A stretch of 32,000 nt of DNA from Anabaena sphaerica FACHB-251 (GCF_014696825.1 NZ_JACJQU010000009.1:166094-198093); one strand, 5' to 3'. Shown: positions 11,894-29,411, counted from the stretch's first letter. Numbers and translations: made by a program. The notes: generated by a model not told the origin, from the letters alone.

Positions 11894-12156
11894 ATAATCC
11901 GTTGATTAACCTGACAAGATAAAAAATTACCGTGAAAACTTGTAATATAATACCTATAAAGGTAAAGCTACTAATAGCTTACAAACCATTGTTCACAACG
12001 CAAGCAGCAGTTTGACACATTACTTGCAATTTTGGCACTTATACAGAAATATACTCTCCCCCAATGTACACAAATCTTGTATATAGTGGGAGAATTCTTA
12101 ATGTCAATCGGCGAATCAGCCATCTAAACTTATAGTCTCTGGTAGAGTAATCAGTC

Positions 12157-12729
12157 GTGGCCAACAAAATTTTAGTTATCGATGACACTACAGTTGTCAG
12201 AGTAAAAGTACGTGAAATGTTGCCTGCGGGCAATTTTGAGGTATTGGAAGCAAAAGACGGTTTAGAAGGATATAATCTCATCCTCAAAGAAAACGTCAGC
12301 TTGATCATGTTGGATTTTATTTTACCGAAAATGAGTGGCTGGGAAGTTTTCCAAAAAATTCAAGCCAACCCAGAATTAAAGAAAATTCCTTTGGTGATCA
12401 TGTCTGGTCGCAAGGAAGAAGTAACAGAAAAAATCCCTGAACCATTTGAGTATTTTGAATTTCTGGGCAAGCCTTTTGACCAAAGACAGCTGATTAATGC
12501 TATTAAATTAGCTATGGCAGCTGCTAAAAAAGATCGTCGAGATGCTGCAACTCCAGTAGCTGGTGTAAAAACAGAGCAAGTGGCAGTTAAATCTGCTTCT
12601 ACACAAGGTGCTTCTTCAGCAGAAATTCAGGCTCTAAATGCCAAAATTGTCAAAATGCAAGCTGAAATTGATAATTTGAAGAAACAGCTAACTCAGGTTG
12701 TGACATTTATTAAACAGAAAATCAAATAA
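12157..12729 (+). CDS. CheY-like response regulator with a C-terminal coiled-coil tail
   Basis: GTG start. The REC domain shows ILVIDDTTVVR, MLDFILPKMSGWE and GKPF. The tail EIQALNAKIVKMQAEIDNLKKQL is coiled-coil-like. Confidence 0.85.
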   Translation: MANKILVIDDTTVVRVKVREMLPAGNFEVLEAKDGLEGYNLILKENVSLIMLDFILPKMSGWEVFQKIQANPELKKIPLVIMSGRKEEVTEKIPEPFEYFEFLGKPFDQRQLINAIKLAMAAAKKDRRDAATPVAGVKTEQVAVKSASTQGASSAEIQALNAKIVKMQAEIDNLKKQLTQVVTFIKQKIK

Positions 12730-12804
12730 GTCTTATTGGCTCTTTCTATTATCTTTGCCACCCAAAATACTTCAGTCTATAAAATCAGTTATAGACTGAC
12801 CAAA

Positions 12805-12848
12805 CCTGCAATTTTTTATTTAATTGAAGAAAATGGCAGGTTTTTTTT
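12805..12848 (+). terminator. Rho-independent terminator of the response regulator gene
   Basis: cctgcaatttt ... aaaatggcagg forms a stem with one mismatch and is followed by eight T residues (12841-12848). Confidence 0.6.
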
Positions 12849-12970
12849 GACTTTTATTTCTATAATTTAAATAGATGAATCCTGTTTATTAAAAGCTATC
12901 TGCACCAAAAATTATAAATTTAACTTAATCATGAAAATCATGAAATCCTATAAATACTGATTCTGACATG

Positions 12971-13006
12971 ATCAAAAATGGGCAATGAGTTAATTACTCA
13001 TTACCC
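12971..13006 (-). terminator. Probable rho-independent terminator of ndhB
   Basis: gggcaatgagt / actcattaccc forms an 11-bp stem with one mismatch immediately after the ndhB stop. On the minus strand it is followed by ATTTTTGAT. Confidence 0.5.
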
Positions 13007-13016
13007 ATGAATCAAT

Positions 13017-14579
13017 CTACAATTCTTCTGCTTGCTTAGTAATAATTACATTTGCTTGTGTACTCGCCACTTTTGCGGCTTGCAAAATGGGAGTATTCGC
13101 AACTGAATTATTCGCTAAAGTAAACAACGGATTGGACAAAATACCCGCGATGGAAGTAGCAATTAAAGTTGCTATCAAGCCAACTTGTAAAGGTCTTAAA
13201 CCTGGTAAATCCCAACGCACTTGAGGATAATTCTTCACTACGTCGGACATTTCTTGGGGTTCTTTAACCACCATCATTTTAACTACACGAATGTAGTAGT
13301 AGATGGAAACAACGCTGGTAACTAAACCTAGCAGAACTAACCAGTAAAGACCAGCTTGCCAACCTGCCCAGAATAAGTAAATCTTCCCGAAAAACCCAGC
13401 TAGTGGGGGAATACCACCCAAGGATAACAGAGAGATACTTAAACCGAGTGTGAGCAGTGGGTCTTTCTGATACAAACCTGAATATTCAGCAATTTGATCT
13501 GTTCCCGTCCGCAGAGAGAAGAGAATGATGCAGGTAAAGCCGCACAGGTTCATGAACAGGTAAACCAGTAAGTAAAATATCATACTGGAATAACCTGCAT
13601 CAGTACCAGCAATTAAACCAATCATCACAAAGCCAGCTTGGGCAATGGATGAATAAGCTAACATCCGTTTCATGCTGGTTTGGGCTAAAGCAACTACGTT
13701 ACCCAAGACCATACTGAGGACTGCTAGGGCTGTAAAGACAAATCTCCACTCGTCAGCGACGAGGGGGAAAACTACCGTCAATAAGCGGATAGCAAGTGCA
13801 AAACCTGCTGCTTTGGAACCGACAGATAAGAAGGCGATGACTGGGGTGGGAGCGCCTTCATAAACGTCTGGTGTCCACTGGTGGAAAGGTGCAGCGGAGA
13901 TTTTGAAACCAATTCCCGCAATGACGAAAACAAGGGCAATTACAAAACCAAGAGATTGACTGACGTTAGCTGCGGCGATACCGTTAGCGATCGCACTCAA
14001 TTCTGTTTGTCCACCGGATAAACCATACAGCAGTGATACACCGTATAAAAACACTGCTGTGCTGGAAGCTCCAATTAACAGGTATTTCAGGGCTGCTTCA
14101 TTAGAACGAGGGTCACGCTTGGTATAACCTGTTAACAAATAAGAGGAAATACTCAGGGTTTCTAGGGAGATGAAAATCATCACCAACTCACTAGCACCTG
14201 ATAAAAACATTCCTCCCAAAGTCGCAGTCATCAAAATGGCGATAAATTCTGCTAAAGCAGTACCACTCTGCTCTACATAGCGAATCGACATCAATATAGT
14301 CACAGCAGCAGACAGAGCAATGATACCGCGAAAGACAATACTGAGGTCATCACCATTAAAGCTCCCAGTAAAGCCGATGGGATTGGTGGAATCCCATTGT
14401 AAGTATAGGGCGACAATCGCAGCTGATAAACCAGCGATCGCCAGATATCCAATCCAGCGTGAAGATGTGCGCCCCAAAATCAAATCAACAATCAAAACCC
14501 CCAAGAGGGTGAGAATGACAATTCCCTCTGGTAAAATCGTTCCAGCATTTAACTGGGATGCAATATTAGCAAAATCCAT
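13017..14579 (-). CDS. ndhB: NAD(P)H-quinone oxidoreductase (NDH-1) subunit 2
   Basis: 520-aa polytopic ORF whose sequence is characteristic of NdhB/NuoN throughout ([28 protein letters not shown]). Confidence 0.95.
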
Positions 14580-14801
14580 GAGATGTATAGGTTTTGTCGA
14601 TTAGAGATCAAGGCTAACTGAGTTAATTCTATCTATAGTTCTTGACCAAAATTGCATTTATCCGTATATTTTAAACTCACAGATGCTGGTTGACCATTCA
14701 ATCTAAGTAATTATACTATTAAACCTCGTGTTATATTTTAGCTGATACAATGTCTGGATGAACCAAAAGAAAAATTCAGAATATTGCCAGATCGTTTGTA
14801 C

Positions 14802-15602
14802 CTAGAGACTAAACACTTTTTTCAAAGTCTTGATTTTAGTTGTATTAAGACCACATTCAAGCTTAGAAATAGGATTTAAGCTTTTCCATTTACCTTTACT
14901 AGCACTGCAAATAATATCTGCTGCTGTTTCTATATCAACCTTGTCAAAGCCATCTATTTTATTTTGGGATAAATAATCTAACCGACTAAAAATTTCATCT
15001 CTTGTGGCAATTTTAATACTAATGCTCTCTGGGGGTGGTAAAGGTTGTGAAGTTGATATTGGTGGAGATACAAAGAAAATTTTAGATAGATGATCTAATT
15101 TTTTTCCCTTAGTAATACCGCATTTTAAAGTAGTTATCGGGTTTAAATTTGACCAACTTTCTCGATCTGCTGCTGCAATTTTGTCAGTAGCTATTACAGG
15201 GTCTACACCTTTTAATGCACTAGCTGGTTCAGCAATTAAATATCGCAGTGCTGCTAAAATAATATCTCTTGAAGCTGTAGTTAAATTAATTTTTGGTATA
15301 GCTTCTCTAGCTAAAATTTTCGCTTGTTCAATATTTTGAGATTCTGGGGAAATGACTATACACCAAACACGATCTAAACCAGCTTTTTGAGCAGCCGCAT
15401 AAACCAATTGATTGCTAACTATTTGATATTTGTAATCAGCAATTTCTTGAACAATAGCCGGAATCCAATTGCGTCCATTAGCTTGTAAAATAGCTTCTGC
15501 TGCTGCTGTAACAATAAATTCTGATTCAGAGATTTTTTCACTAGGCTCAATTTCTTTTAAAAGCAGGTGCTTGAGTTTGCCAATATTATCAAAATCGCTC
15601 AT
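14802..15602 (-). CDS. ParB/Srx-like N-terminal domain protein lacking the GERR box, with a duplicated HhH-like C-terminal module
   Basis: WIPAIVQEIADYKYQIVSNQLVYAAAQKAGLDRVWCIVI aligns to the ParB N-domain pattern PIxV...YxIIAGERRxRAAxxAGLxxVPxIV, but GERR is replaced by SNQL. Residues 105-176 and 194-264 are clear duplicates. The start overlaps the upstream gene's stop (ATGA at 15599-15602). Confidence 0.6.
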   Translation of the reverse strand: MSDFDNIGKLKHLLLKEIEPSEKISESEFIVTAAAEAILQANGRNWIPAIVQEIADYKYQIVSNQLVYAAAQKAGLDRVWCIVISPESQNIEQAKILAREAIPKINLTTASRDIILAALRYLIAEPASALKGVDPVIATDKIAAADRESWSNLNPITTLKCGITKGKKLDHLSKIFFVSPPISTSQPLPPPESISIKIATRDEIFSRLDYLSQNKIDGFDKVDIETAADIICSASKGKWKSLNPISKLECGLNTTKIKTLKKVFSL

Positions 15603-16951
15603 AAAATAAAGTATTCCTTCGCTAAATCGAGATAATGTTGTGCAGCAGTAGAATGTTTAAAAGCAGCGGGTATACGATCAAATGCCGCACCTGATACAAT
15701 TGCATAACTTGGTAGAATGAATATTTCTGTATTGGTATTAGCTTTTGTATAGTTAGGCCAAAAGTAAGGTTGTAAATTAATTTGTTTTGATTCTCTTATA
15801 ATAATATCTTGAATTTCTTTATTTGCAGTTTTAAGCTGAGGAGGAGAAATACTTTCTCCATTAAAAAATATAGGTAATGCTATTGGTCCACCATCAGGTC
15901 TAGCTGCTTTAACTTTTGGGATAAAATCTTTAATCACTTTAGCTGCATTCTCTAGAGAAGCTAAATTGTTGTGTTTGGTAGGTATAAGCACAGCATCACA
16001 GGCATACAGGCTACTTTGACTAAAAAACATCCAATTTGTAGGACAATCAATAAATATGTAATCATATTCAGTTTTGAAAATCTTAATAGCATCTCTTAAT
16101 CTAGCAGAACCTTTATCAATTTTTGCAACCAAGTCTTGCTCTGTAAATAATCCCATTTTTGGATCTGCTGGTATAACATCAAATTTTACTGTCTCTCCCG
16201 ATTTGAATTTGACTCCAAAATGTTTAATGGTATTGCGAATATCTAAAGTTCTATCAGCTAGACAATCATATAAACTTATTTTTCCTAATTGTAATCCAAG
16301 GGAATTAGTTAAATCTCCTTGTTGTGGGTCAAAGTCAATTACAAGAACTTTTTTCCCCTTTCGGGTGAGAATTGCTGCTAAATTAACAGTTGTTGTGGTT
16401 TTACCAACACCACCCTTATTGTTGTAAACACAGACAGTCAATGCTTTCGGTGGATTATCAATCAAATTTTTGATGTGAGCAACAATATCATGAATATTGT
16501 CTTTTTTAATTAAAAGACTAGAAGTGGCAGGTACAACAACTTTTCCATGTTTTCTAAATAGCTGGATATGAACTGAATTAGTAATAATGCCCCATTGAGA
16601 TTTTTGACAATTCGGAGAAAGTAAATATCTTTTGATTTGCTCTCTAGCTCTGATGTATTGAGGAGTCCCGTCCGATAAATTAATATTTGCTCCTGCACCT
16701 GTTGCTCGTGCCTTGACTTCGATTAGTAAATAGGGATTAGTTTTGGAAAATGAGAAATTATCACTAACAGCATTCTTGCGAGCGGCAAAATCTACTGTCC
16801 CATTTCCTGTAGAAAATGCTGGAATCTGCTCTTGTTGATTAAATCCCAGTGATTCTATCAGAGGGTCTACAAAACTTTTGCTGATCAGAGCTTCATTACT
16901 CTCATGTGGTAAAATACCATCTAAAATTTGATTCCAGTCTATAGTTACCAT
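15599..16951 (-). CDS. Fusion protein: N-terminal HsdR-N/PD-(D/E)xK restriction-endonuclease-like domain plus C-terminal ParA/Soj-type ATPase
   Basis: The N-terminal 165 or so residues read FVDPLIESLGF...GTVDFAAR...PYLLIEVKAR...QIKRYL...QWGIITNSVHIQLF, the HsdR_N-like D...ExK pattern. The C-terminal part has the deviant Walker A NNKGGVGKTTT (16397-16417), A' VLVIDFDPQ, and Walker B YDYIFIDCP. Confidence 0.7.
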   Translation of the reverse strand: MVTIDWNQILDGILPHESNEALISKSFVDPLIESLGFNQQEQIPAFSTGNGTVDFAARKNAVSDNFSFSKTNPYLLIEVKARATGAGANINLSDGTPQYIRAREQIKRYLLSPNCQKSQWGIITNSVHIQLFRKHGKVVVPATSSLLIKKDNIHDIVAHIKNLIDNPPKALTVCVYNNKGGVGKTTTTVNLAAILTRKGKKVLVIDFDPQQGDLTNSLGLQLGKISLYDCLADRTLDIRNTIKHFGVKFKSGETVKFDVIPADPKMGLFTEQDLVAKIDKGSARLRDAIKIFKTEYDYIFIDCPTNWMFFSQSSLYACDAVLIPTKHNNLASLENAAKVIKDFIPKVKAARPDGGPIALPIFFNGESISPPQLKTANKEIQDIIIRESKQINLQPYFWPNYTKANTNTEIFILPSYAIVSGAAFDRIPAAFKHSTAAQHYLDLAKEYFIL

Positions 16952-17038
16952 TACTTAATTACCAAACAAGAATTTGTATGAAAACTATGGCTTTTTTAGT
17001 TTAACCACATTTGTTACTGGAAGTAAGCCTGTATCTTC

Positions 17039-17115
17039 ACTTATTTTAAATATACTTATTAATATACAAACAGGAAAACTGATAAATTAGGATAAGTATT
17101 TTTATAAGTATTTTT
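17039..17115. promoter_or_regulatory. Cluster of four ATAAGT/ACTTAT motifs upstream of the ParA-fusion operon; candidate operator, iterons or centromere-like site
   Basis: acttat occurs at 17039-17044 and 17054-17059. A tandem 12-mer, ataagtattttt ataagtattttt, lies at 17092-17115. The two pairs are in inverted orientation, 90-165 bp upstream of the ATG at 16951. Confidence 0.35.
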
Positions 17116-17845
17116 ACTAGATATAGCTTAATTACAGTTGCTTGTTTAGGAAACCCACTAGCTGAAGATTGCGGAATAACTAAAAGATTTGCTTGTGCAA
17201 ATCAACATTCATAACTATTTTGTCCGTCAGGGTGTAGTATTTAATGAAGCTAAACCTCAGATACTTAGTTAGGAATTAGCATTGCTTTTAATGTAATAAT
17301 TAAAACAATTTGTAAGAATAATACGTAATTAGCCATAAATATTTTACTCAAATTTCCTAAAACGGATCATCAAGCGTTCAGAAGCGATGCTTCCAAAGTG
17401 CTATAGCTTCGCTCTCTTCGAGACGCTTCGCGAACGCCGCAGGCATCGCACTTTAGCTAAAGTTAAGTGAGGTATTCTTTGTCCCTCAACCGGCTCCACA
17501 GGCAGAGTCAGGTAAAGTAGAATTTATAATTGCTCAGAACCTCCAGTCCTCAACGAAAGAAGGCATCACCCCAGTTACACTTCAGGGATATTTTGAAAAC
17601 TGTAGTCGCCAATTGTGCGTTAGATAAGTTAAAGATGGAAATATCTAAGCAATTTACATTTTGCATTGCCATTTCCAGTCTTCTGGGGCTGACTGTACCT
17701 AAAGTTGAAAGAATTTTCACCCTTTTGGGCAGTTTGTGTAAGGATAAAATCACTGCTTAGGCGTGATATTTCATCTTGACATTTCGCCAAAATTATCTCA
17801 ACTTGACTGTTTAGCTTCAAAGCTATTCTTTTTTTTGAAATTTCC

Positions 17846-20497
17846 ATGTCAACTCTCGTCATCGTCGAATCTCCAACCAAAGCTCGTACCATTCGCAACT
17901 ACCTGCCCAAAGACTATCGGGTAGAAGCGTCAATGGGTCACGTGCGTGACCTCCCCCAGTCGGCTAGTGAAATTCCTGCTGCTGTCAAAGGGGAAAAATG
18001 GGCGCAGCTTGGGGTGAATATAGAAGCCGACTTTGAACCGGTGTATGTCGTCCCCAAGGACAAAAAGAAAATTGTCACTCAGCTGAAAGATGCCCTCAAA
18101 GGTGTTGATGAATTGATTTTGGCAACTGACGAAGACCGGGAAGGTGAAAGCATCAGTTGGCATTTATACCAATTGCTGAAGCCAAAAGTGCCTACTAAGC
18201 GAATGGTGTTTCACGAAATTACCCAGGAAGCTATTAAAAAAGCTTTGACAGACTGCCGTAATATTGATGAGCAATTGGTTCGCGCCCAAGAAACTAGACG
18301 AATTTTAGATCGACTGGTGGGATACACCCTATCGCCCTTGCTCTGGAAAAAAATCGCTTGGGGATTATCCGCAGGAAGAGTGCAATCTGTAGCGGTGCGG
18401 CTGTTGGTCAATAAGGAACGCCAACGCCGTGCTTTCCATGAAGGTACATATTGGGATTTGAAAGCCAGTTTATTGCAGGAAAAAAGCCCCTTTAGCGCCC
18501 AGTTGGTGACTTTTGGAGGTACTAAAGTTGCTACAGGCAGCGATTTTGATCCCACAACGGGACAAATAACCGCTGGACGCAATGTGGTGCTGCTGAATGA
18601 GGAACAAGCTTTAGAACTGAAGGAACGTCTGGAGGGTAAAACCTGGACTGTGACGGATATGGAAGAACGTCCAGTTACCCGTAAACCTTCACCACCGTTT
18701 ACTACCTCGACGCTGCAACAAGAATCTAACCGCAAGTTGCGTCTTTCAGCACGGGATACAATGCGGGTTGCTCAGAATTTGTACGAGCAAGGGTATATTA
18801 CCTATATGCGTACAGATTCGGTGCATTTGTCAGATCAAGCGATCGCTGCTGCTCGCAGTTGTGTGGAACAAAAGTACGGTAAGCAATATCTCAGCCCCCA
18901 ACCCAGACAATACACCACTAAATCCAAAGGCGCACAAGAAGCACACGAAGCCATCCGCCCCGCTGGTAGCACTTTCCGCACACCCCAAGAAACGGGTTTA
19001 GGCGGAAGGGAATTTGCAGTATATGATTTAATTTGGAAGCGTACTGTAGCTTCACAAATGGCTGATTCTCGCCAGACCCAAATTACTGTCCAACTGCTAG
19101 TTGAAGATGCAGGTTTTCGTTCTTCTGGGAAACGCATTGATTTTCCAGGCTACCTACGCGCCTACGTCGAAGGGTCTGATGATCCCGAAGCCGCATTAGA
19201 AGACCAAGAAGTAATTTTACCACCCCTCAAAGTCGGAGATCATCCCACTTGCACAGAACTGGAAGCTGTGGGACACGAAACCCAGCCTCCCGCTAGGTAC
19301 ACCGAAGCTAGTCTGGTAAAAACTTTAGAAAGTGAAGGTATTGGTCGTCCTAGTACCTATGCCAGCATTATTGGTACGATCATCGATAAAGGTTATGCTC
19401 AGTTGGTGAGTAATGCTTTAATTCCTACTTTTACGGCTTTTGCTGTCACCGACTTGCTGGAGAAGCATTTCCCCGATATTGTTGATCCTAGCTTTACCTC
19501 GAAAATGGAGCAAACCCTCGATGATATTGCTACAGGTGAAGCTAAGTGGCTACCTTACCTCCAGAAATTTTATCTGGGAGAACATGGTTTAGAAACCTTG
19601 GTGAGAGAACAGGAAAGTCAAATTGATGCGACTAAAGCCAGAACTGTAGAACTAGAAAACTTAGATGCTAAAGTCCGCATTGGTAAATATGGTCCTTACA
19701 TCGAAGTAGAAAATGGTGAAGGTGTGGTGACAGCGTCTATTCCTAAAGACCTCACACCCGCTGACCTCAACCCCAAACAGGTAGAAGTCCTGCTGCGCCA
19801 AAAAACTACCGGGCCTGACCAGGTGGGACGACATCCCGAAACTGGTGAACCAATTTATGTGAAAATTGGCACTTATGGACCTTATGTGCAGTTGGGTGAT
19901 AAAACCGAGGAAAATCCTAAGCCTAAACAAGCTTCCTTCCCCAAAGGGGTAACACCGGAAAATCTCACATTAGAGGTAGCTGTGGGGCTGTTGGCATTAC
20001 CTCGAACCTTGGGAGTACATCCGGTGACGGGAGGAAAAATACAAGCTAGTTTAGGACGGTTTGGTCCCTATGTGGTTCATGACCAAGGCAAGGAAGGAAA
20101 AGATTATCGTTCTCTCAAAGCGGCTGATAATGTATTGACGATTTCCCTAGAGCGTGCGTTGGAGTTATTGGCAGAACCAAAAAAGGGGCGTAGTTCTAGC
20201 AGCAGTAAATCTAAAGCAGCTTTACGGGAACTGGGTACTCATCCAGATGATGATGCATCTGTAAATATTTACGATGGCCCTTATGGTCCTTATATTAAGC
20301 ATGGCAAAACTAATGTCAGTCTTCCAGAAGGTCAGTCAGTGGAAACTATCACCCTGTCAGCTGCACTAGAATTGCTGCAAGCTAAAGCATCTACTAAATC
20401 TACAAGCAGAACAAGTAAATCAACGACTTCTAAAACTAAGTCAAGTACGACCAAATCATCAACTACTAGAGGGAAAAAGAAAGAAGCATCAAATTAG
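17846..20497 (+). CDS. topA: DNA topoisomerase I (type IA)
   Basis: Toprim N-terminus ([22 protein letters not shown]) and active-site region [10 protein letters not shown]. The four C-terminal G(K/T/R/P)(Y/F)GPY(I/V) repeats contain no Cys, so they are not zinc ribbons. The protein ends in a Lys/Ser/Thr-rich tail. Confidence 0.95.
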
Positions 20498-21106
20498 GGA
20501 CTAGGGAGATGGGAAATTCCGAGATTTTACTCCTTACCCTTTCCCTTATCCTTGTGATAATCTAATAAGTAAGCAAGAACACAAAACCAAATTTTCACTT
20601 GGTTTATGGGGCCGTTCAGTCAGCGTAAAACTCAGTCCCTTTAGGGCTGAGATAGAAGCTATTTGTGCGATTTTAATCGCTCAATTCTTTGACTCTGCTT
20701 GCTTAGTATGTGATATAATTAGCGCAAGACCGAAAGTTAGTATAACTAAACAACGTAAAAACTTAACTAGATTGGTTGAGTGCGTAGTCTCACATAAAAG
20801 TGTAGCAGTTTAGAAAAGCTAGATTGAGGGCATACTTCCGCTAAACAGAAACTTTGTTGTGTACGGTAGGGCATACCGAAACTTAGGCTTGGGGAGAAGA
20901 TAACTCTACTTTGGTTGGCGCAATCCTGTCAGAGTAAGTAGTAACTTCGGTAAACCAAGAATCTCACTGTCTTTAGACCTGAGAGTGCCAAGTCTTAGAA
21001 TACAGGAATGTATCAGCCTGATTAGAAACGAAAAGTGCGACAATTAGCCCGTTTCTATGATCCTGTTAATCAAAATTGAGGTAGTATCTCAGGAGCGTTC
21101 AGTTCA

Positions 21107-26628: not shown

Positions 26629-29411
26629 GAGCTTTTGATAAACTTTGGGAATCTCAAAGACTTGAGAAATCAAAAAAATTAGATAATCATCAAACTAAAT
26701 CCAAAATATTAGGCAAGCTTTCTCAAGTACCAGAACAACCTTTAAATTTCCTACCACGTCCTCATGAACTCAATAAAATCAAAAGTTTATTACTTGAGAA
26801 TGAAAACCAAAGAGTAGCCGTTACAGGAATTTCTCATCGTGTGGGTTTACAAGGTATGGGAGGAATTGGCAAATCAGTTTTAGCCGCAATTTTAGCCCAT
26901 GATGAAGACATAAGAAGTGTTTTCCCTGATGGTATTTTGTGGATAACACTTGGACAGCAACCAGCACTAACCTTAAGACAATTAGATTTAGCTAAAATGC
27001 TGGGTGATAGTTCGCAAATATTTCAAGATGTGCAACAAGGTAAAGTCTATTTAGGTGAATTATTTGCAAATAAAGCTTGCTTACTAATTATTGATGATGT
27101 TTGGAAAACTAAAGACGCGCAAGCCTTTAATATTTTAGGTCAGCGTTGCAAGATGTTGATTACAACACGGGATAGTAGGGTATTAGAAGGAGTAGGTGCT
27201 GTTAATCATCCAGTAGACTTGCTAACAGTTCCAGAATCACTAGCATTACTAGCTTTATGGGCAAAACAACATCCAGAAACTTTACCTCCAGAAGCACATC
27301 AAATAGTAGAAGAATGTGGTAGATTACCCTTAGCATTAGCCATGATTGGGGCAATGTTAAAAGGTAAGCCAGACCCTTGGAAAAATGTATTATATAAACT
27401 TCGTAATGCTGATTTAGAGAAAATAGAAGCTGAATTTCCTGAAAATTATCAATATCCAAACTTACTCAAAGCAATACAGGTTAGTGTTAAAGCATTAGAA
27501 CCTGATTTACAAAAACGATATCTAGATTTTGCTGTTTTTCCAGAAGATACACTAATTTCTGAAGCAGTTTTACAAACTTTTTGGCAATCGGAAGGGTTAA
27601 ATGAACATGATATCCAAGATCATATTAATTTACTCGTAGAAAGATCCCTAATTCGTCGTGATGAGAAAAATTGTTTAACTTTACATGACCTTCAATATGA
27701 CTATGTACTTAAGCAAGCTGGTGATTTATCCATACTACATAATCGTTTATTAGCTGCTTATTCTCAATATTGTTCTCATGGTTGGCATACAGGAATAAAT
27801 GATGGTTATTTCTTTCAAAATTTGGCTTACCATTTGAGAGAATCAGGACGCAAAGATGAACTGTATAGACTTTTGACACAATCACCTGATTGGATGGAGG
27901 CAAAATATATTGCTTGTATAGGTGATGCAGCATACGTCGCTGATTTGCAATTGGCAATAAATAATTTTACTGATCCTTTAACCGCAGATGAATTATTAAT
28001 TTTAGTGCAACTACATACAGCACGGCAAATAGTTAATCAAAGAGTTAGTTTATATAATAATGATGATTTAGCTACCTTAGTTTGGTTGGATAGAGAAGAA
28101 GAGGCTTTAAATCATGCTCGTTTAAGATTAGAGATTGAAGAAAGATTTTATGGATTAATCACTATTTATAAATCTCTTTATGAAAAGAAAACACCTAAGC
28201 CAGAAATTTTAGATGAAATCTGGGAAATTATTAAATCAATGGATGGCTTAATTAAACTTGAAGCGTTTTGTGATTTGGCTAATTTAATTTGTAAAATAGG
28301 GACTGATTCCAAAACCTATAACGCTATTTTATCTCAAACATTTGAGTTATTTGAAAATAAAAATTATCTATTAAATTCTTGCCAAGATGACTGGGCTAAA
28401 ATGAAATTTCTTCAAATTCTAAGTAAATTGGCTTTATTACTATTTATTCTTGGAAAAGATGAACTTGCATATATAACTTTTGTTGAAGTTCACGAAGCCA
28501 TAAAATTATGCAAAAAAAATTTTCAACTACCAAAATTATGGATTACTCTAGTTATAAATCTAGCCGAAGCTAATTTTTTTCATCAAGCTTACAGCATATC
28601 ACAAATAATTGAAGGAAATTATTTCAAAATAAATGTACTCAGTCATTTAGCCAAAACATTATTTAACAAGGGAATGCAAGCAGAGGCTAAATTATATCTT
28701 GCCGAAGTACAGGAAATCGCCACGTTATTAAATGACAGTGTTGGAGCAGAACAAGCACTTATAGAAATAGTATCAGCAACTGCTTATGCTGGAGATATTA
28801 AGCAAGCTCAAGAATTTTTATTAATGATAGGTGATAATGGTTGGTATACACACGCTTTAATGCAATTATCAATAGCATTAGCTAGATGTGGTAATTTCTT
28901 AAAAGCTGAAGAGTTTATTCAAAAAATTGAAGATAGAGGAATAAAAAACAGTGAAGATAGAGAAATAATTGAAACACTAGCCAAGATTGATTTATTATCC
29001 AACGCAGAAGAAATAGCAAATAAAATCAAGTATATACCAGAAAAAATAATAGCTCTTACTAGCTTAATAAAATCACTTCATAAAAAAGGGCAAAAGGATG
29101 AATCTGAAAACCTATTTTCAACAGTCAAGATACATTTGGAATTAATGCCTGAAAATATAGGTGAGGAAAATTTATTAGCTGTTTGTACTGCACTAGCTAA
29201 AATTAAGCAATTTGCACATGGACTAGCTAGGATAAAAGTAGATGATATAGATATTTTTATAGAGACATTAACAGACTGGGATACGGCTTTTGAAGAAGTT
29301 GAAAGTGGTTTATCTATCGTGATTTTCAGAGAAGTAATCCGTATTGCCAGTTGGGTAAGTCCTCACTGGCAGGAGATTTATCAGATTTTTCCTAATGTCA
29401 AAAGAGACTAA
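26625..29411 (+). CDS. NB-ARC (Apaf-1/R-protein type) STAND NTPase with a long alpha-helical repeat C-terminus
   Basis: P-loop GMGGIGKS (26853-26876), Walker B LLIIDDVW, RNBS-B LITTRD, GLPL-like CGRLPLALAMIG, MHD-like LTLHDL, then an HD2-like YFFQNLAYHLRESGRKDELYRLL...DWMEAKY. The roughly 500-aa K/E/L/I-rich C-terminus looks helical. There is no ATG before the P-loop. Confidence 0.85.
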   Translation: MRAFDKLWESQRLEKSKKLDNHQTKSKILGKLSQVPEQPLNFLPRPHELNKIKSLLLENENQRVAVTGISHRVGLQGMGGIGKSVLAAILAHDEDIRSVFPDGILWITLGQQPALTLRQLDLAKMLGDSSQIFQDVQQGKVYLGELFANKACLLIIDDVWKTKDAQAFNILGQRCKMLITTRDSRVLEGVGAVNHPVDLLTVPESLALLALWAKQHPETLPPEAHQIVEECGRLPLALAMIGAMLKGKPDPWKNVLYKLRNADLEKIEAEFPENYQYPNLLKAIQVSVKALEPDLQKRYLDFAVFPEDTLISEAVLQTFWQSEGLNEHDIQDHINLLVERSLIRRDEKNCLTLHDLQYDYVLKQAGDLSILHNRLLAAYSQYCSHGWHTGINDGYFFQNLAYHLRESGRKDELYRLLTQSPDWMEAKYIACIGDAAYVADLQLAINNFTDPLTADELLILVQLHTARQIVNQRVSLYNNDDLATLVWLDREEEALNHARLRLEIEERFYGLITIYKSLYEKKTPKPEILDEIWEIIKSMDGLIKLEAFCDLANLICKIGTDSKTYNAILSQTFELFENKNYLLNSCQDDWAKMKFLQILSKLALLLFILGKDELAYITFVEVHEAIKLCKKNFQLPKLWITLVINLAEANFFHQAYSISQIIEGNYFKINVLSHLAKTLFNKGMQAEAKLYLAEVQEIATLLNDSVGAEQALIEIVSATAYAGDIKQAQEFLLMIGDNGWYTHALMQLSIALARCGNFLKAEEFIQKIEDRGIKNSEDREIIETLAKIDLLSNAEEIANKIKYIPEKIIALTSLIKSLHKKGQKDESENLFSTVKIHLELMPENIGEENLLAVCTALAKIKQFAHGLARIKVDDIDIFIETLTDWDTAFEEVESGLSIVIFREVIRIASWVSPHWQEIYQIFPNVKRD

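What the first reader, a model, noticed from the sequence alone, without database searches (positions are those of the whole stretch)
14802..16951. Two-gene module: nuclease-fold-ParA fusion plus a degenerate ParB-like partner, isolated between ndhB and topA
Two minus-strand ORFs overlap by 4 nt (ATGA at 15599-15602), so they are almost certainly co-translated from one operon. The 450-aa product joins an N-terminal domain with the HsdR-N/Mrr-type PD-(D/E)xK pattern to a complete ParA/Soj deviant-Walker ATPase that retains the signature lysine (KGGVGKT). The 266-aa product opens with a ParB/Srx-like domain. Classical ParA proteins have no N-terminal extension, or an HTH; I know of no described function for a restriction-endonuclease-fold ParA fusion paired with a ParB-like protein that lacks the CTP box. 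The window contains no replication, integrase, transposase or conjugation genes. The pair sits alone between core genes, in DNA that is visibly more AT-rich and free of HIP1 sites. I see three hypotheses. (a) It is a DNA-surveillance or defence module: a DNA-bound ParA ATPase gates a nuclease domain, and the ParB-like partner acts as sensor or ATPase activator. (b) It is a relic of a plasmid or ICE partition cassette. (c) It is a ParA-type cargo-positioning system. I favour (a) or a domesticated form of (b), but the sequence alone cannot decide.
Basis: partly seen in the sequence, partly recalled or inferred. Interest (0 to 1): 0.85.

Follow-up and report, generated by a model that had tools for sequence, protein, structure and literature searches.

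The report
Nuclease-fused ParA with ParB-like partner
This is a real, strongly conserved two-gene operon found across cyanobacteria, in which a DNA-cutting domain is fused to a ParA-type ATP switch and paired with a ParB-derived DNA-binding protein that has lost its CTP site; no paper in the library searched describes the combination, and its role (restriction-like DNA surveillance or replicon maintenance) is still open.

Summary
Two minus-strand genes (450 aa and 266 aa, ATGA overlap) lie between ndhB and topA in Anabaena sphaerica FACHB-251.

**Fusion protein.** It joins an HsdR-N-type PD-(D/E)xK domain to a complete Soj-like ParA ATPase. D54, E78, K80 and QxxxY are invariant.

**Partner.** It has a ParB/Srx fold in which GERRFR is replaced by SNQLVY, followed by a duplicated small helical domain.

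**Not a local island.** The pair is an ancient, co-evolving unit found in many cyanobacterial orders. Distant relatives occur in Leptospira. It is nearly always chromosomal, among housekeeping genes, with lineage-level synteny. It evolves as slowly as its neighbours (dN/dS 0.1-0.4).

**Accessory signs.** Distribution looks patchy, and split or IS-disrupted copies occur. GC3 is low in every locus examined. Rare divergent plasmid copies behave as swapped cassettes. Four of 15 chromosomal loci have methyltransferase, restriction or defence genes adjacent. One relative adds a HEPN domain.

**Verdict.** The leading reading (about 0.4) is a ParA-gated, restriction-like DNA-targeting module. A ParABS-derived replicon-maintenance system is the main rival (about 0.25). 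A decaying relic is excluded. It matches no known defence model and no paper found. It is a new variant of a known kind.

The parts
15599..16951 (-). Gene for the 450-aa fusion protein (HsdR-N-type nuclease domain + ParA ATPase)
   Evidence: ORF. 100% identical to an A. sphaerica FACHB-251 'AAA family ATPase'. AF2 pLDDT 91.8, pTM 0.91.
16448..16951 (-). N-terminal PD-(D/E)xK domain, aa 1-168 (HSDR_N / HSDR_N_2 type)
   Evidence: Sub-threshold HSDR_N match here. Relatives pass the Pfam gathering scores. Alpha-beta-beta-beta-alpha-beta topology. Only 146 representative clusters in 1.84e9 proteins match the domain profile, and full-length hits almost all carry it directly before a ParA domain.
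16712..16792 (-). Catalytic motif D54 ... E78-V-K80. Q105xxxY109 follows at 16625-16639.
   Evidence: Invariant in the 22 close homologues. D54/E78/K80 are kept in 17 of 20 very divergent members, including plasmid copies, Leptospira and the HEPN fusion.
15602..16447 (-). ParA/Soj-type deviant Walker ATPase domain, aa 169-450
   Evidence: AAA_31 E=2.2e-33. Foldseek E=4e-17, TM 0.8 to ParA-ATP, Soj and McdA.
16397..16417 (-). Deviant Walker A K179-GGVGK184-T, with signature lysine K179
   Evidence: Invariant in all alignments.
15599..15602 (-). ATGA stop/start overlap coupling the two genes
   Evidence: Sequence read. An overlapping or 5-13-nt-spaced junction is seen in most other loci. Exceptions are L001 (IS insertion) and L105 (split fusion gene).
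14802..15602 (-). Gene for the 266-aa ParB-like partner
   Evidence: ORF. 421 homologues, all named ones cyanobacterial, on the same contigs as the fusion. AF2 pLDDT 89.6.
15303..15575 (-). ParB/Srx-fold domain, aa ~10-100
   Evidence: Foldseek probability 1.0 to ParB-CTP/CDP, Noc, PadC, KorB and sulfiredoxin. Pfam ParB_N is only 19.4 bits against a cut-off of 26.3. dN/dS 0.13-0.18.
15399..15428 (-). Position of ParB Box II (aa 59-68, YQIVSNQLVY). The CTP-binding GERRFR is replaced by SNQLVY.
   Evidence: Family alignment.
15063..15287 (-). Partner repeat 1, aa 106-180: small helical domain ending in ...LKCGITKGKKL...; putative DNA-binding
   Evidence: Internal duplication, BLASTP E=1e-13. Helices in the model. 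The unit occurs in 1 or 2 copies in family variants.
14805..15020 (-). Partner repeat 2, aa 195-266. A Pro-rich linker, aa 181-194, lies at 15021-15062.
16952..17037 (-). Conserved 5' region upstream of the fusion gene (promoter, leader or operator), including GTAACAAATGTGGTTAAA at 17000-17017
   Evidence: Conserved among five Nostocales loci that otherwise have unrelated upstream genes. The 18-nt motif was found once each in the window and four related loci (L089-L092), always just upstream of the fusion start.
17044..17116 (.). Cluster of ATACTTAT (two direct copies, 12 nt apart start to start) and ATAAGTAT (inverted) motifs; candidate operator, untested
   Evidence: Not found in this form in the other loci.

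Best explanation
The pair is a cyanobacterial two-component DNA-targeting module, most likely restriction-like and used for DNA surveillance or replicon exclusion.

Shown:
- The large protein is a rigid fusion of an HsdR-N-type PD-(D/E)xK domain, with an intact and deeply conserved catalytic motif, to a complete Soj-like ParA ATPase.
- The small protein is ParB-derived (ParB/Srx fold), has lost the CTP-binding box, and carries one or two copies of a small helical domain. Some variants add a Rho_N/SAP-type tail.
- The two genes are translationally coupled in this window (ATGA overlap).
- They co-occur and co-evolve over the whole depth of the family.

Inferred mechanism:
1. ATP drives the ParA domains into the usual sandwich dimer on double-stranded DNA.
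2. Dimerisation brings two nuclease domains together on the DNA, so that cleavage is licensed only in the ATP-dimer state.
3. The ParB-like partner is bound to DNA through its duplicated helical domain. Like ParB partners generally, it controls where the ATPase is recruited or switched off. That spares or targets particular DNA.
4. Self-protection would come from host methylation or from partner-bound sites.

The biological role (anti-plasmid or anti-phage restriction versus competition between replicons) is inferred, not shown.
For: Architecture and active-site conservation.

The N-domain is found essentially only in front of ParA. One relative adds a HEPN RNase, and two add SF1 helicases, one of these with a DUF559 endonuclease. 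This is the kind of effector accretion typical of conflict systems.

The partner always follows the fusion gene, even in the 30-45%-identity subgroup.

Adjacent conflict genes in 4 of 15 chromosomal loci. A Type II N6/N4 methyltransferase overlaps the partner's stop codon in L001. A C5 methyltransferase is the next gene in L102. Neither methyltransferase has a recognisable restriction enzyme beside it. A BsuBI/PstI restriction-enzyme fragment and a complete PDC-M07 system are in L085. A SoFic-like Fic protein and a STAND NTPase are in L106.

Accessory-gene hallmarks. Only a subset of Nostoc strains appears among the named carriers. Several copies are split, truncated or IS-disrupted on long contigs. 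GC3 is 0.09-0.18 below the local median in all 11 loci examined; within the window that low GC3 is shared only with an NB-ARC STAND gene.

The plasmids that carry the pair already have ParM and/or other ParA partition systems.
Against: There is no match to any PADLOC system beyond the Walker-A stretch.

Eleven of 15 chromosomal loci have only housekeeping neighbours.

Lineage-level synteny exists: Cylindrospermum/Nostoc/Goleter, and Phormidium/Argonema. Substitution rates and dN/dS equal those of the neighbouring housekeeping genes. That pattern is more typical of a cellular function than of an arms-race gene.

No nuclease activity, target or phenotype is known.

A nuclease on a protein that binds the nucleoid non-specifically needs a self-protection mechanism that I could not identify.

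The enrichment of defence neighbours is modest. My rough estimate is P about 0.01, and cyanobacterial genomes are rich in such genes.
Confidence: 0.4

Rival explanations
1. A divergent ParABS-type partition or maintenance system for replicons. The ParB-derived partner binds a centromere-like site through its duplicated helical domain and stimulates the ParA ATPase on the nucleoid. The nuclease-fold N-domain plays an accessory role, such as site-specific DNA binding and autoregulation (as the N-terminal HTH does in type Ia ParA), or nicking. Chromosomal copies would be domesticated, or would act on the multicopy chromosome.
For: The ParA domain is complete, and the partner looks DNA-binding and is ParB-derived.

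Full-length copies exist on three cyanobacterial plasmids, next to a small site-specific recombinase on the two Nostoc plasmids.

Two co-resident Nostoc UHCC 0870 plasmids share a 90-92%-identical backbone, but their fusion and partner genes are only 52% and 58% identical. That is the pattern expected of an incompatibility or partition determinant.

Inheritance is vertical, at housekeeping-like rates.

A conserved operator-like 5' region travels with the operon.

The mechanism that maintains the roughly 8 chromosome copies in Anabaena is stated to be unknown.
Against: Partition does not need an intact nuclease active site conserved down to about 30% identity.

No repeated centromere-like array was found near the operon, and the conserved motif occurs once per locus.

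Only 3 of 72,556 plasmids carry the pair, and those already encode ParM and/or other ParA systems.

The partner lacks the CTP switch. Its short N-terminal tail has no invariant basic residue: K9 is N, E or Q in some members.

Distribution is patchy and pseudogenes occur.

Methyltransferase adjacency and the HEPN fusion are unexplained by partition.
Confidence: 0.25
2. A nucleoid-associated DNA repair, recombination or chromosome-copy management nuclease. It would, for example, process recombination intermediates or entangled genome copies in polyploid cells. ParA would provide the nucleoid scanning, and the ParB-like protein the regulation.
For: It is chromosomal and vertically inherited, evolves slowly, and sits in housekeeping neighbourhoods.

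In four lineages it is adjacent or close to DNA-metabolism genes: topA here, holB/tmk in L083 and L103, dnaN in L091, and polA and ruvC within 8 kb in L105 and L102.

PD-(D/E)xK domains also serve in repair (established knowledge).
Against: The proximity to DNA-metabolism genes is anecdotal and not consistent between loci.

Distribution is patchy and inactivated copies are frequent.

Plasmid copies, the HEPN fusion and methyltransferase adjacency are not expected.

The domain belongs to the HsdR-N type, not to a known repair nuclease family.
Confidence: 0.12
3. A selfish addiction (toxin-antitoxin-like) cassette. The nuclease-ATPase would be the toxin and the ParB-like protein its neutraliser, stabilising whichever replicon carries it.
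For: It is a translationally coupled two-gene unit that moves as a block together with its own conserved promoter region.

It is present on plasmids near stability functions.

GC3 is low, distribution is patchy, and chromosomal positions vary even between close relatives.
Against: The proteins are large and slowly evolving, with lineage-level synteny.

In L001 an IS separates the two genes, yet the partner survives next to a truncated fusion.

There is no similarity to known toxin-antitoxin families.
Confidence: 0.08
4. A ParA-type positioning system for a protein cargo, analogous to McdAB for carboxysomes.
For: ParA/MinD ATPases with a small downstream partner commonly position protein cargos. 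Cyanothece McdA is among the best structural matches to the ATPase domain.
Against: The partner has a ParB/Srx fold with DNA-binding-type modules (Rho_N/SAP in variants). It is not a disordered or coiled-coil McdB-like protein.

There is no consistent neighbourhood with any cargo genes.

The nuclease domain is unexplained.
Confidence: 0.05
5. A decaying relic of a plasmid or ICE partition cassette with no current function.
For: It looks isolated and AT-rich in this window. Rare plasmid homologues exist.
Against: dN/dS is 0.10-0.40 on every domain, comparable to housekeeping neighbours. Catalytic and ATPase motifs are invariant. The two-gene unit is intact in most lineages sampled.
Confidence: 0.02

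Closest known systems
Type I (ParABS) partition systems: Soj/Spo0J and plasmid type Ia/Ib ParA-ParB
   Same: A deviant Walker A ParA ATPase is followed by a co-translated gene for a partner with a ParB/Srx-fold N-domain. Rare copies sit on plasmids next to a recombinase.
   Different: ParA carries an N-terminal HsdR-type nuclease domain in place of no extension or an HTH.

The partner lacks the GERRxR CTP box. It fails the Pfam ParB_N threshold. It has a duplicated small helical domain in place of the recognised HTH plus C-terminal dimerisation domain.

No parS-like array was found.
HsdR nuclease domain of Type I restriction enzymes (Pfam HSDR_N / HSDR_N_2), and Mrr-like Type IV enzymes
   Same: Same PD-(D/E)xK subfamily, with D...ExK...QxxxY and the TNG-type strand. 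Relatives pass the Pfam gathering scores. In both cases a nuclease is coupled to an ATPase that works on DNA.
   Different: The ATPase is a ParA dimerisation switch, not an SF2 translocase. There are no HsdM/HsdS partners. A methyltransferase lies adjacent in only 2 of 15 loci.
ParB/DUF262-containing restriction and defence nucleases (GmrSD, SspE, BrxU; from my own knowledge of the literature, plus the paper listed)
   Same: They combine a ParB/Srx-fold domain with a nuclease in a DNA-targeting system.
   Different: In those enzymes the ParB-like domain is an active NTPase fused to an HNH/DUF1524 nuclease in one protein. Here the ParB-like domain has lost the NTP box and sits on a separate protein. 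The nuclease is PD-(D/E)xK and is fused to ParA. No sequence similarity was detected.
PADLOC candidate system PDC-M28 (component B: a ParA-like ATPase model of 438 positions, with the Walker A region at about positions 125-167)
   Same: A ParA-type ATPase with an N-terminal extension of about 120 aa, flagged as a defence candidate. The lengths are similar.
   Different: Only the 41-residue Walker-A stretch matches (E=1e-8). The N-domain and the rest of the protein do not, so this is not the same family.
McdAB carboxysome positioning system of cyanobacteria
   Same: A cyanobacterial ParA-like ATPase with a small downstream partner and a variable genomic location. McdA is a good structural match to the ATPase domain (PMC7182216).
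   Different: McdA has no nuclease domain. McdB is a disordered or coiled-coil protein that binds carboxysome shells, not a ParB/Srx-fold protein.

Membership tests
ParA/Soj/MinD deviant Walker A ATPases | Deviant Walker A xKGGxGK[ST] with signature lysine, Walker A' (DxD) and Walker B Asp | tested here: met
   KGGVGKT (K179, K184), D206-F-D208 and D302 are invariant or nearly invariant across the family. AAA_31 E=2.2e-33.
ParA/Soj/MinD deviant Walker A ATPases | Soj/ParA three-dimensional fold | tested here: met
   Foldseek E=4e-17, TM (target) 0.79-0.84 to ParA-ATP, B. subtilis and H. pylori Soj, and McdA.
ParA/Soj/MinD deviant Walker A ATPases | ATP-dependent dimerisation, non-specific DNA binding and partner-stimulated ATPase activity | not testable with these tools
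   Requires biochemistry. Only the motifs could be assessed.
PD-(D/E)xK nucleases, HSDR_N / HSDR_N_2 subfamily | Match to the Pfam model above the curated cut-off | tested here: inconclusive
   This protein scores 14.1 bits against a cut-off of 25.1 for HSDR_N. Family members P0355 (31.6 and 28.6 bits) and P0304 (29.5 bits) pass, and several fragments carry precomputed PF13588/PF04313 hits. Membership is therefore transitive.
PD-(D/E)xK nucleases, HSDR_N / HSDR_N_2 subfamily | Catalytic D...(D/E)xK on strands 2-3 of an alpha-beta-beta-beta-alpha-beta core, followed by QxxxY | tested here: met
   D54 lies on strand 52-57, and E78 at the end of strand 75-79 with K80 just after it. Q105/Y109 lie on helix 97-110. 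D54/E78/K80 are retained in 17 of 20 divergent members.
PD-(D/E)xK nucleases, HSDR_N / HSDR_N_2 subfamily | Structural match of the isolated domain to solved nucleases | tested here: inconclusive
   The whole-model Foldseek list is filled by ParA hits. A profile search of PDB sequences found nothing. The isolated domain could not be submitted separately.
PD-(D/E)xK nucleases, HSDR_N / HSDR_N_2 subfamily | Mg-dependent DNA cleavage | not testable with these tools
   Needs an enzyme assay.
ParB/Srx superfamily (ParB N-terminal domain) | ParB/Srx fold | tested here: met
   Foldseek probability 1.0, E=3e-6 to 1e-3, to ParB, Noc, PadC, KorB and sulfiredoxin. The match to sulfiredoxin has rmsd 2.9 over 87 columns.
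ParB/Srx superfamily (ParB N-terminal domain) | Pfam ParB_N above the gathering score | tested here: not met
   19.4 bits against 26.3. Plasmid variants score 15-17 bits.
Canonical ParB CTPase clamp | Box II GERRxR and Box III ENxQR CTP-binding motifs | tested here: not met
   GERRFR aligns to SNQLVY, and no arginine is conserved at these positions in 24 homologues.
Canonical ParB CTPase clamp | Central HTH parS-binding domain and C-terminal dimerisation domain | tested here: inconclusive
   The region after the N-domain is a duplicated small helical unit. Long Foldseek alignments to ParB have rmsd of about 19 and are not reliable there. There is no sequence match to solved ParBs.
ParABS partition locus | Cis-acting centromere (parS or iterons) at or near the operon | tested here: not met
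   There is no repeat array. A conserved 18-nt motif occurs once per locus, and an ATACTTAT cluster occurs only in the window. Distant sites elsewhere in the genome could not be examined.
ParABS partition locus | Typically plasmid-borne next to replication functions, or origin-proximal on the chromosome | tested here: not met
   Only 3 of 72,556 plasmids carry it. Chromosomal positions vary, and only L091 is near dnaN.
Known or candidate anti-phage defence systems (PADLOC-DB v2) | Full-length match of the components to a system model | tested here: not met
   Only a Walker-A-stretch hit to PDC-M28B; the partner has no hit.
Known or candidate anti-phage defence systems (PADLOC-DB v2) | Enrichment next to known defence genes | tested here: inconclusive
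   Four of 15 chromosomal loci have R-M or defence genes within two genes of the pair. The other 11 are purely housekeeping. The sample is too small, and the cyanobacterial background rate is unknown.
McdAB | Partner is a small disordered or coiled-coil McdB; locus is often near carboxysome genes | tested here: not met
   The partner is a folded ParB/Srx protein. No ccm or rbc neighbours were seen in the sampled loci. Raf1, at the far end of the window, is about 14 kb away.

The most novel reading that the evidence does not exclude
The pair founds a previously unrecognised class of DNA-targeting immunity or replicon-exclusion system, built from partition-system parts. A ParA ATP-dimerisation switch would gate an HsdR-type nuclease. 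A CTP-independent ParB derivative would act as the DNA-bound licensing or self-marking factor. Host or adjacent methyltransferases might supply protection. The class would be ancient and widespread in cyanobacteria, with outliers in Leptospira.
Probability: 0.33. Interest if true: 0.85.

Novelty: new variant of a known kind. Interest (0 to 1): 0.62.

Why it matters
ParA/ParB systems are the textbook machinery for positioning DNA and organelles. None is known to carry a nuclease.

If the ParA switch really gates a conserved HsdR-type nuclease, that would be a new way of coupling an ATP-dependent DNA-binding switch to DNA cleavage. It would also be a new example of partition parts being repurposed. 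A recent parallel is the report that chromosomal ParMR in Anabaena became a cytoskeleton (bioRxiv 10.1101/2025.06.27.661541).

There are practical reasons to care as well. An unrecognised restriction-like barrier could help explain why many filamentous cyanobacteria are hard to transform.

If the system instead turns out to be a replicon-maintenance system, it would bear on an open question: how polyploid cyanobacteria keep and distribute their genome copies.

The family was invisible to the recent ParB survey, because the partner fails the Pfam ParB_N threshold that the survey used (PMC12704722).

Tried and rejected
It returned one true family member (L001) among 80 loci. Synteny was therefore built from exact-protein contig look-ups.

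A four-sequence subgroup was used instead.

3. Profile searches of PDB sequences gave no hit for the N-domain and only chance-level hits for the partner.

4. Foldseek on the whole fusion model returned only ParA-type hits. The N-domain fold could not be matched independently.

5. Viral contigs, the curated phage collection and PHROGs gave no hits for either protein.

6. Centromere search. No repeat arrays were found around the operon. The CAAACGG/CCGTTTG inverted repeat in the 5' leader of three Nostocales loci is not maintained in the window or in L091, so I rejected it as a conserved structure.

7. HIP1 depletion was rejected as evidence of foreign origin, because gaps of similar size occur elsewhere in the window.

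8. Low GC3 was rejected as evidence of recent transfer into this genome, because it is family-wide.

9. No tRNA gene lies anywhere in the window, no Rfam family matches 12000-21000, and no convincing terminator flanks the operon.

10. Five literature searches found no description of the architecture.

11. I first assigned the partner's repeats to Rho_N/HeH. I corrected this after seeing that Rho_N is a separate C-terminal tail present only in some variants.

Full report
**1. The observation**

The window is from Anabaena sphaerica FACHB-251. Both proteins are 100% identical to entries from that genome.

ORFs 15599..16951(-) of 450 aa and 14802..15602(-) of 266 aa are present. They share an ATGA stop/start overlap.

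They lie between ndhB (13017..14579, minus strand) and topA (17846..20497, plus strand). The rest of the window encodes ordinary chromosomal functions. These include Raf1, UbiE, two-component proteins, a branched-chain amino-acid permease, a radical-SAM protein, dehydroquinase, a 7TMR-HD protein and a GlmS-type amidotransferase. There is also one NB-ARC STAND NTPase. None of the long ORFs matches a mobile-element family. There is no tRNA gene in the window, and no Rfam family matches 12000-21000.

The pair is AT-rich. GC is 0.34 against 0.40 for the window. GC3 is 0.18-0.20 against 0.30-0.42 for 16 of the 17 other long ORFs.

The HIP1-free stretch (14442-18838) is real but not exceptional, given 20 sites in 32 kb and other gaps of 3-3.9 kb.

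**2. Anatomy of the fusion protein**

Residues 172-338 match AAA_31 at E=2.2e-33, and the protein also matches several ParA/MinD families. The deviant Walker A (K179, K184), the DxD box (D206, D208) and Walker B (D302) are invariant in 22 homologues of 57-87% identity.

The AlphaFold model is confident (pLDDT 91.8). Its pTM of 0.91 means the two domains are predicted to pack in a fixed orientation. The ATPase half superposes on ParA-ATP, Soj and McdA with TM about 0.8.

Residues 1-168 have helix 20-34, strands 42-47, 52-57 and 75-79, helix 97-110 and strand 120-124. This is the alpha-beta-beta-beta-alpha-beta core of PD-(D/E)xK nucleases. D54 lies on strand 2, E78 at the end of strand 3 with K80 just after it, and Q105xxxY109 on the following helix.

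The Pfam HSDR_N hit is sub-threshold in this protein (E=0.045). An exhaustive profile search with the N-domain alone found only 146 representative clusters among 1.84 billion proteins. Two of the ten hits scanned against Pfam, P0355 and P0304, pass the curated HSDR_N or HSDR_N_2 cut-offs. The assignment to the HsdR-N subfamily is therefore sound but transitive.

In an alignment of 20 very divergent members (down to about 30% identity), 17 retain D54/E78/K80. These include the plasmid copies, Leptospira and a HEPN fusion. N125 and Q130 are invariant. The motif is lost in P0405 and in the two relatives where an SF1 helicase precedes the domain; one of the two also carries a DUF559 endonuclease.

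Conservation this deep argues for catalysis rather than a structural remnant. That is an inference.

**3. Anatomy of the partner**

The model has pLDDT 89.6. Residues ~10-100 adopt the ParB/Srx fold, with Foldseek probability 1.0 to CTP/CDP-bound ParB, Noc, PadC, KorB and sulfiredoxin. At sequence level, ParB_N scores 19.4 bits against a cut-off of 26.3.

The Box II segment aligns as YQIVSNQLVYAAAQKAG against YDIVAGERRFRAAKLAG of Spo0J. No arginine is conserved there in 24 homologues. A CTP switch is therefore very unlikely.

The C-terminal two-thirds is an internal duplication: aa 106-180 and aa 195-266, at E=1e-13. It consists of small helical units ending in ...LKCGITKGKKL..., joined by a proline-rich linker.

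Variants elsewhere have one unit plus a Rho_N/SAP-type tail that passes the Pfam cut-off (two Nostoc plasmids and Chroococcopsis). Another variant appears to have two units plus a terminal segment with only weak HeH/Rho_N similarity (Acaryochloris pREB8). This explains the 'Rho termination factor' annotations.

A DNA-binding role for the repeat is plausible but not shown. There is no sequence match to solved structures.

**4. Distribution and evolution**

Full-length fusion and partner homologues co-occur on the same contigs. Carriers include Nostoc, Goleter, Cylindrospermum, Scytonema, Microcoleus, Tychonema, Kamptonema, Phormidium, Argonema, Microseira, Planktothrix, Hydrococcus, Chroococcopsis, Leptolyngbyaceae and Synechococcus sp. 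OH30.

A 30-45%-identity subgroup is found in metagenome contigs and in Candidatus Synechococcus spongiarum. It has the same arrangement: a 474-503-aa fusion followed 5-6 nt later by a partner-HMM-positive protein of about 310 aa. Still more distant fusions occur on large, chromosome-sized contigs of saprophytic Leptospira.

I examined 15 chromosomal loci. The position differs between lineages, even in an 87%-identical relative (DEAD helicase - pair - ackA). Blocks of synteny do exist:
- pair-rtcA-FAD-binding gene in Cylindrospermum, Nostoc and Goleter;
- holB-pair-pyrD in Phormidium and Argonema.

A 5' region of about 85 nt travels with the operon in Nostocales.

In the three syntenic Nostocales loci, the partner (78-81%) and the N-domain (74-79%) are as conserved as RtcA (77-80%) and the FAD-binding protein (81-84%).

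dN/dS is 0.10-0.40 for every domain, against 0.08-0.14 for the neighbours. A decaying relic is excluded.

The ParA domain of Cylindrospermum is mosaic. It is 53-54% identical to other Nostocales but 63% to a second lineage in Microcoleus/Oscillatoriales. Its N-domain and partner are typical Nostocales.

**5. Signs that the module is accessory**

- Named Nostoc carriers are a subset: mostly lichen-associated strains, plus N. punctiforme NIES-2108 and DSM 114159. I could not verify absence from model strains.
- Several N-domain-only ORFs lie on long contigs. The fusion gene is split in Synechococcus OH30. In Chroococcopsis an IS4/5-family insertion separates a 3'-truncated fusion from the partner.
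- In all 11 loci compared (the window plus ten others, chromosomal or plasmid-borne), the pair's GC3 is 0.09-0.18 below the local median, and usually the lowest in the locus. In the window the only other gene like this is the NB-ARC STAND NTPase. This persistent bias remains unexplained.

**6. Plasmids and phages**

Only 3 of 72,556 plasmids carry the N-domain: two plasmids of Nostoc sp. UHCC 0870 and Acaryochloris pREB8. All three have the full pair. They also carry ParM/StbA and/or short ParA systems. On the two Nostoc plasmids the pair lies next to a small site-specific recombinase.

The two co-resident Nostoc plasmids share a 5.2-kb backbone at 92% identity and a recombinase region at 90%. 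Their fusion and partner genes are only 52% and 58% identical. The pair is therefore the exchanged, replicon-specific cassette.

Nothing was found in viral contigs, curated phages or PHROGs.

**7. Neighbourhoods**

Eleven of 15 chromosomal loci are purely housekeeping. Four have conflict-type genes within two genes of the pair:
- L001: a Type II N6/N4 methyltransferase overlapping the partner's stop codon.
- L102: a C5 methyltransferase as the next gene. Neither methyltransferase has a recognisable restriction enzyme beside it.
- L085: a BsuBI/PstI restriction-enzyme fragment directly upstream, and a complete PDC-M07 candidate system further downstream.
- L106: a SoFic-like Fic protein upstream and a STAND NTPase downstream.

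I assumed that 1-2% of genes are defence-related and that about 12 of the loci are independent. On that basis 0.5-1 such loci would be expected. The excess is suggestive (roughly P about 0.01, my estimate) but not decisive.

**8. Interpretation**

Partition-type parts (ParA plus a ParB-derived partner that looks DNA-binding) are combined with a nuclease that appears to be active. Several features favour a DNA-targeting conflict role over pure partition:
- the conserved active site;
- accretion of a HEPN domain, and in two cases an SF1 helicase, in relatives;
- methyltransferase and R-M adjacency;
- patchiness and pseudogenes;
- low GC3;
- the presence of other partition systems on the carrier plasmids.

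Other features pull the opposite way:
- vertical inheritance at housekeeping rates;
- mostly housekeeping neighbourhoods;
- no match to PADLOC models;
- the cassette-swap pattern on co-resident plasmids.

I commit to an ATP-dimerisation-gated, restriction-like nuclease controlled by the ParB-like adaptor, at about 0.4. A ParABS-derived replicon-maintenance system follows at about 0.25. Smaller shares go to repair or copy management, addiction, and protein-cargo positioning.

**9. Novelty**

No paper in the searchable library describes a nuclease-ParA fusion or this partner.

The 2025 survey of the ParB-CTPase fold used the Pfam ParB_N gathering cut-off. This partner fails that cut-off, so the survey would have missed the family.

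I rate it a new variant of a known kind: a ParA/ParB-type two-component system with a fused nuclease.

Noticed in passing
window 26856-29408 (+): An 851-aa NB-ARC / APAF-1-like STAND NTPase with helical repeats. It is the only other long ORF in the window with very low GC3 (0.18). It has no PADLOC match.
   Followed up: partly
all loci: window, L001, L081, L083, L085-L091: Family-wide low GC3. The fusion and partner genes are 0.09-0.18 below the local median GC3 in every chromosomal and plasmid locus examined, whatever the host GC content. Unexplained. Candidates are low-expression codon bias for a nuclease, exchange through an AT-rich plasmid pool, or the gene body acting as a binding site.
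   Followed up: partly
L081:8001-9371 (Cylindrospermum sp. NIES-4074): Mosaic fusion gene. The N-domain is 75-79% identical to other Nostocales. The ParA domain is only 53-54% identical to them and is closest (63%) to a second lineage in Microcoleus / Oscillatoriales USR001. The partner is typical Nostocales.
   Followed up: partly
L001:9286-12451 (Chroococcopsis gigantea): An IS4/5-family element (DUF4096 transposase ORFs) is inserted between a 3'-truncated fusion gene and the partner. A Type II N6/N4 DNA methyltransferase gene overlaps the partner's stop codon. An orange-carotenoid-protein-like gene follows; I recognised it by eye and did not test it.
   Followed up: partly
L102:10600-12006: A C5 DNA methyltransferase (Type II MTase model, E=4e-96), with no adjacent restriction enzyme, lies 456 nt downstream of the partner on a 1.2-Mb contig.
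   Followed up: partly
L105:8001-9971 (Synechococcus sp. OH30): The fusion gene is split into 198-aa (HSDR_N_2 + start of AAA_31) and 232-aa (AAA_31) ORFs, followed by a 214-aa ORF at the partner's position. This is a likely frameshift pseudogene in a deep-branching thermophilic lineage.
   Followed up: no
proteins P0344, P0327, P0346, P0317: Distant relatives add modules in front of the N-domain + ParA core. P0344 adds HEPN_Swt1. P0327 adds an SF1 helicase (AAA_11/AAA_12). P0346 adds DUF559 plus an SF1 helicase. The helicase forms have lost D/E/K. P0317 appears to have two tandem N-domains.
   Followed up: partly
L086 and L087 (Nostoc sp. UHCC 0870 plasmids unnamed9 and unnamed4): The two co-resident plasmids share a 92%-identical 5.2-kb block that includes the 3' end of a ParM/StbA gene and about eight hypothetical genes. 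They differ in the nuclease-ParA/partner cassette (52% and 58% identity). Plasmid unnamed9 also has a third, short ParA-like gene.
   Followed up: partly
L089:7722-7826: Five tandem copies of a 21-nt unit (AAAGGTTCATCCACAAAGCTC), starting about 280 nt upstream of the fusion start in a Nostoc MAG. They overlap a called 52-aa ORF and are not seen in the other loci.
   Followed up: no
window 16952-17116: A conserved Nostocales 5' region, with GTAACAAATGTGGTTAAA at 17000-17017. Just upstream is a window-specific cluster of ATACTTAT/ATAAGTAT motifs at 17044-17116. Either could be an operator.
   Followed up: partly
L083:10172-11053 (Phormidium ambiguum): A 293-aa ORF with no Pfam or PADLOC match lies 14 nt after the partner. 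It is absent from the otherwise syntenic Argonema locus L103.
   Followed up: partly
window 16952-17845: The intergenic region between the fusion gene and the divergently transcribed topA is unusually long (894 bp). It contains a GC-richer patch around 17380-17560 and several short ORFs of 62-89 aa of unknown significance.
   Followed up: no
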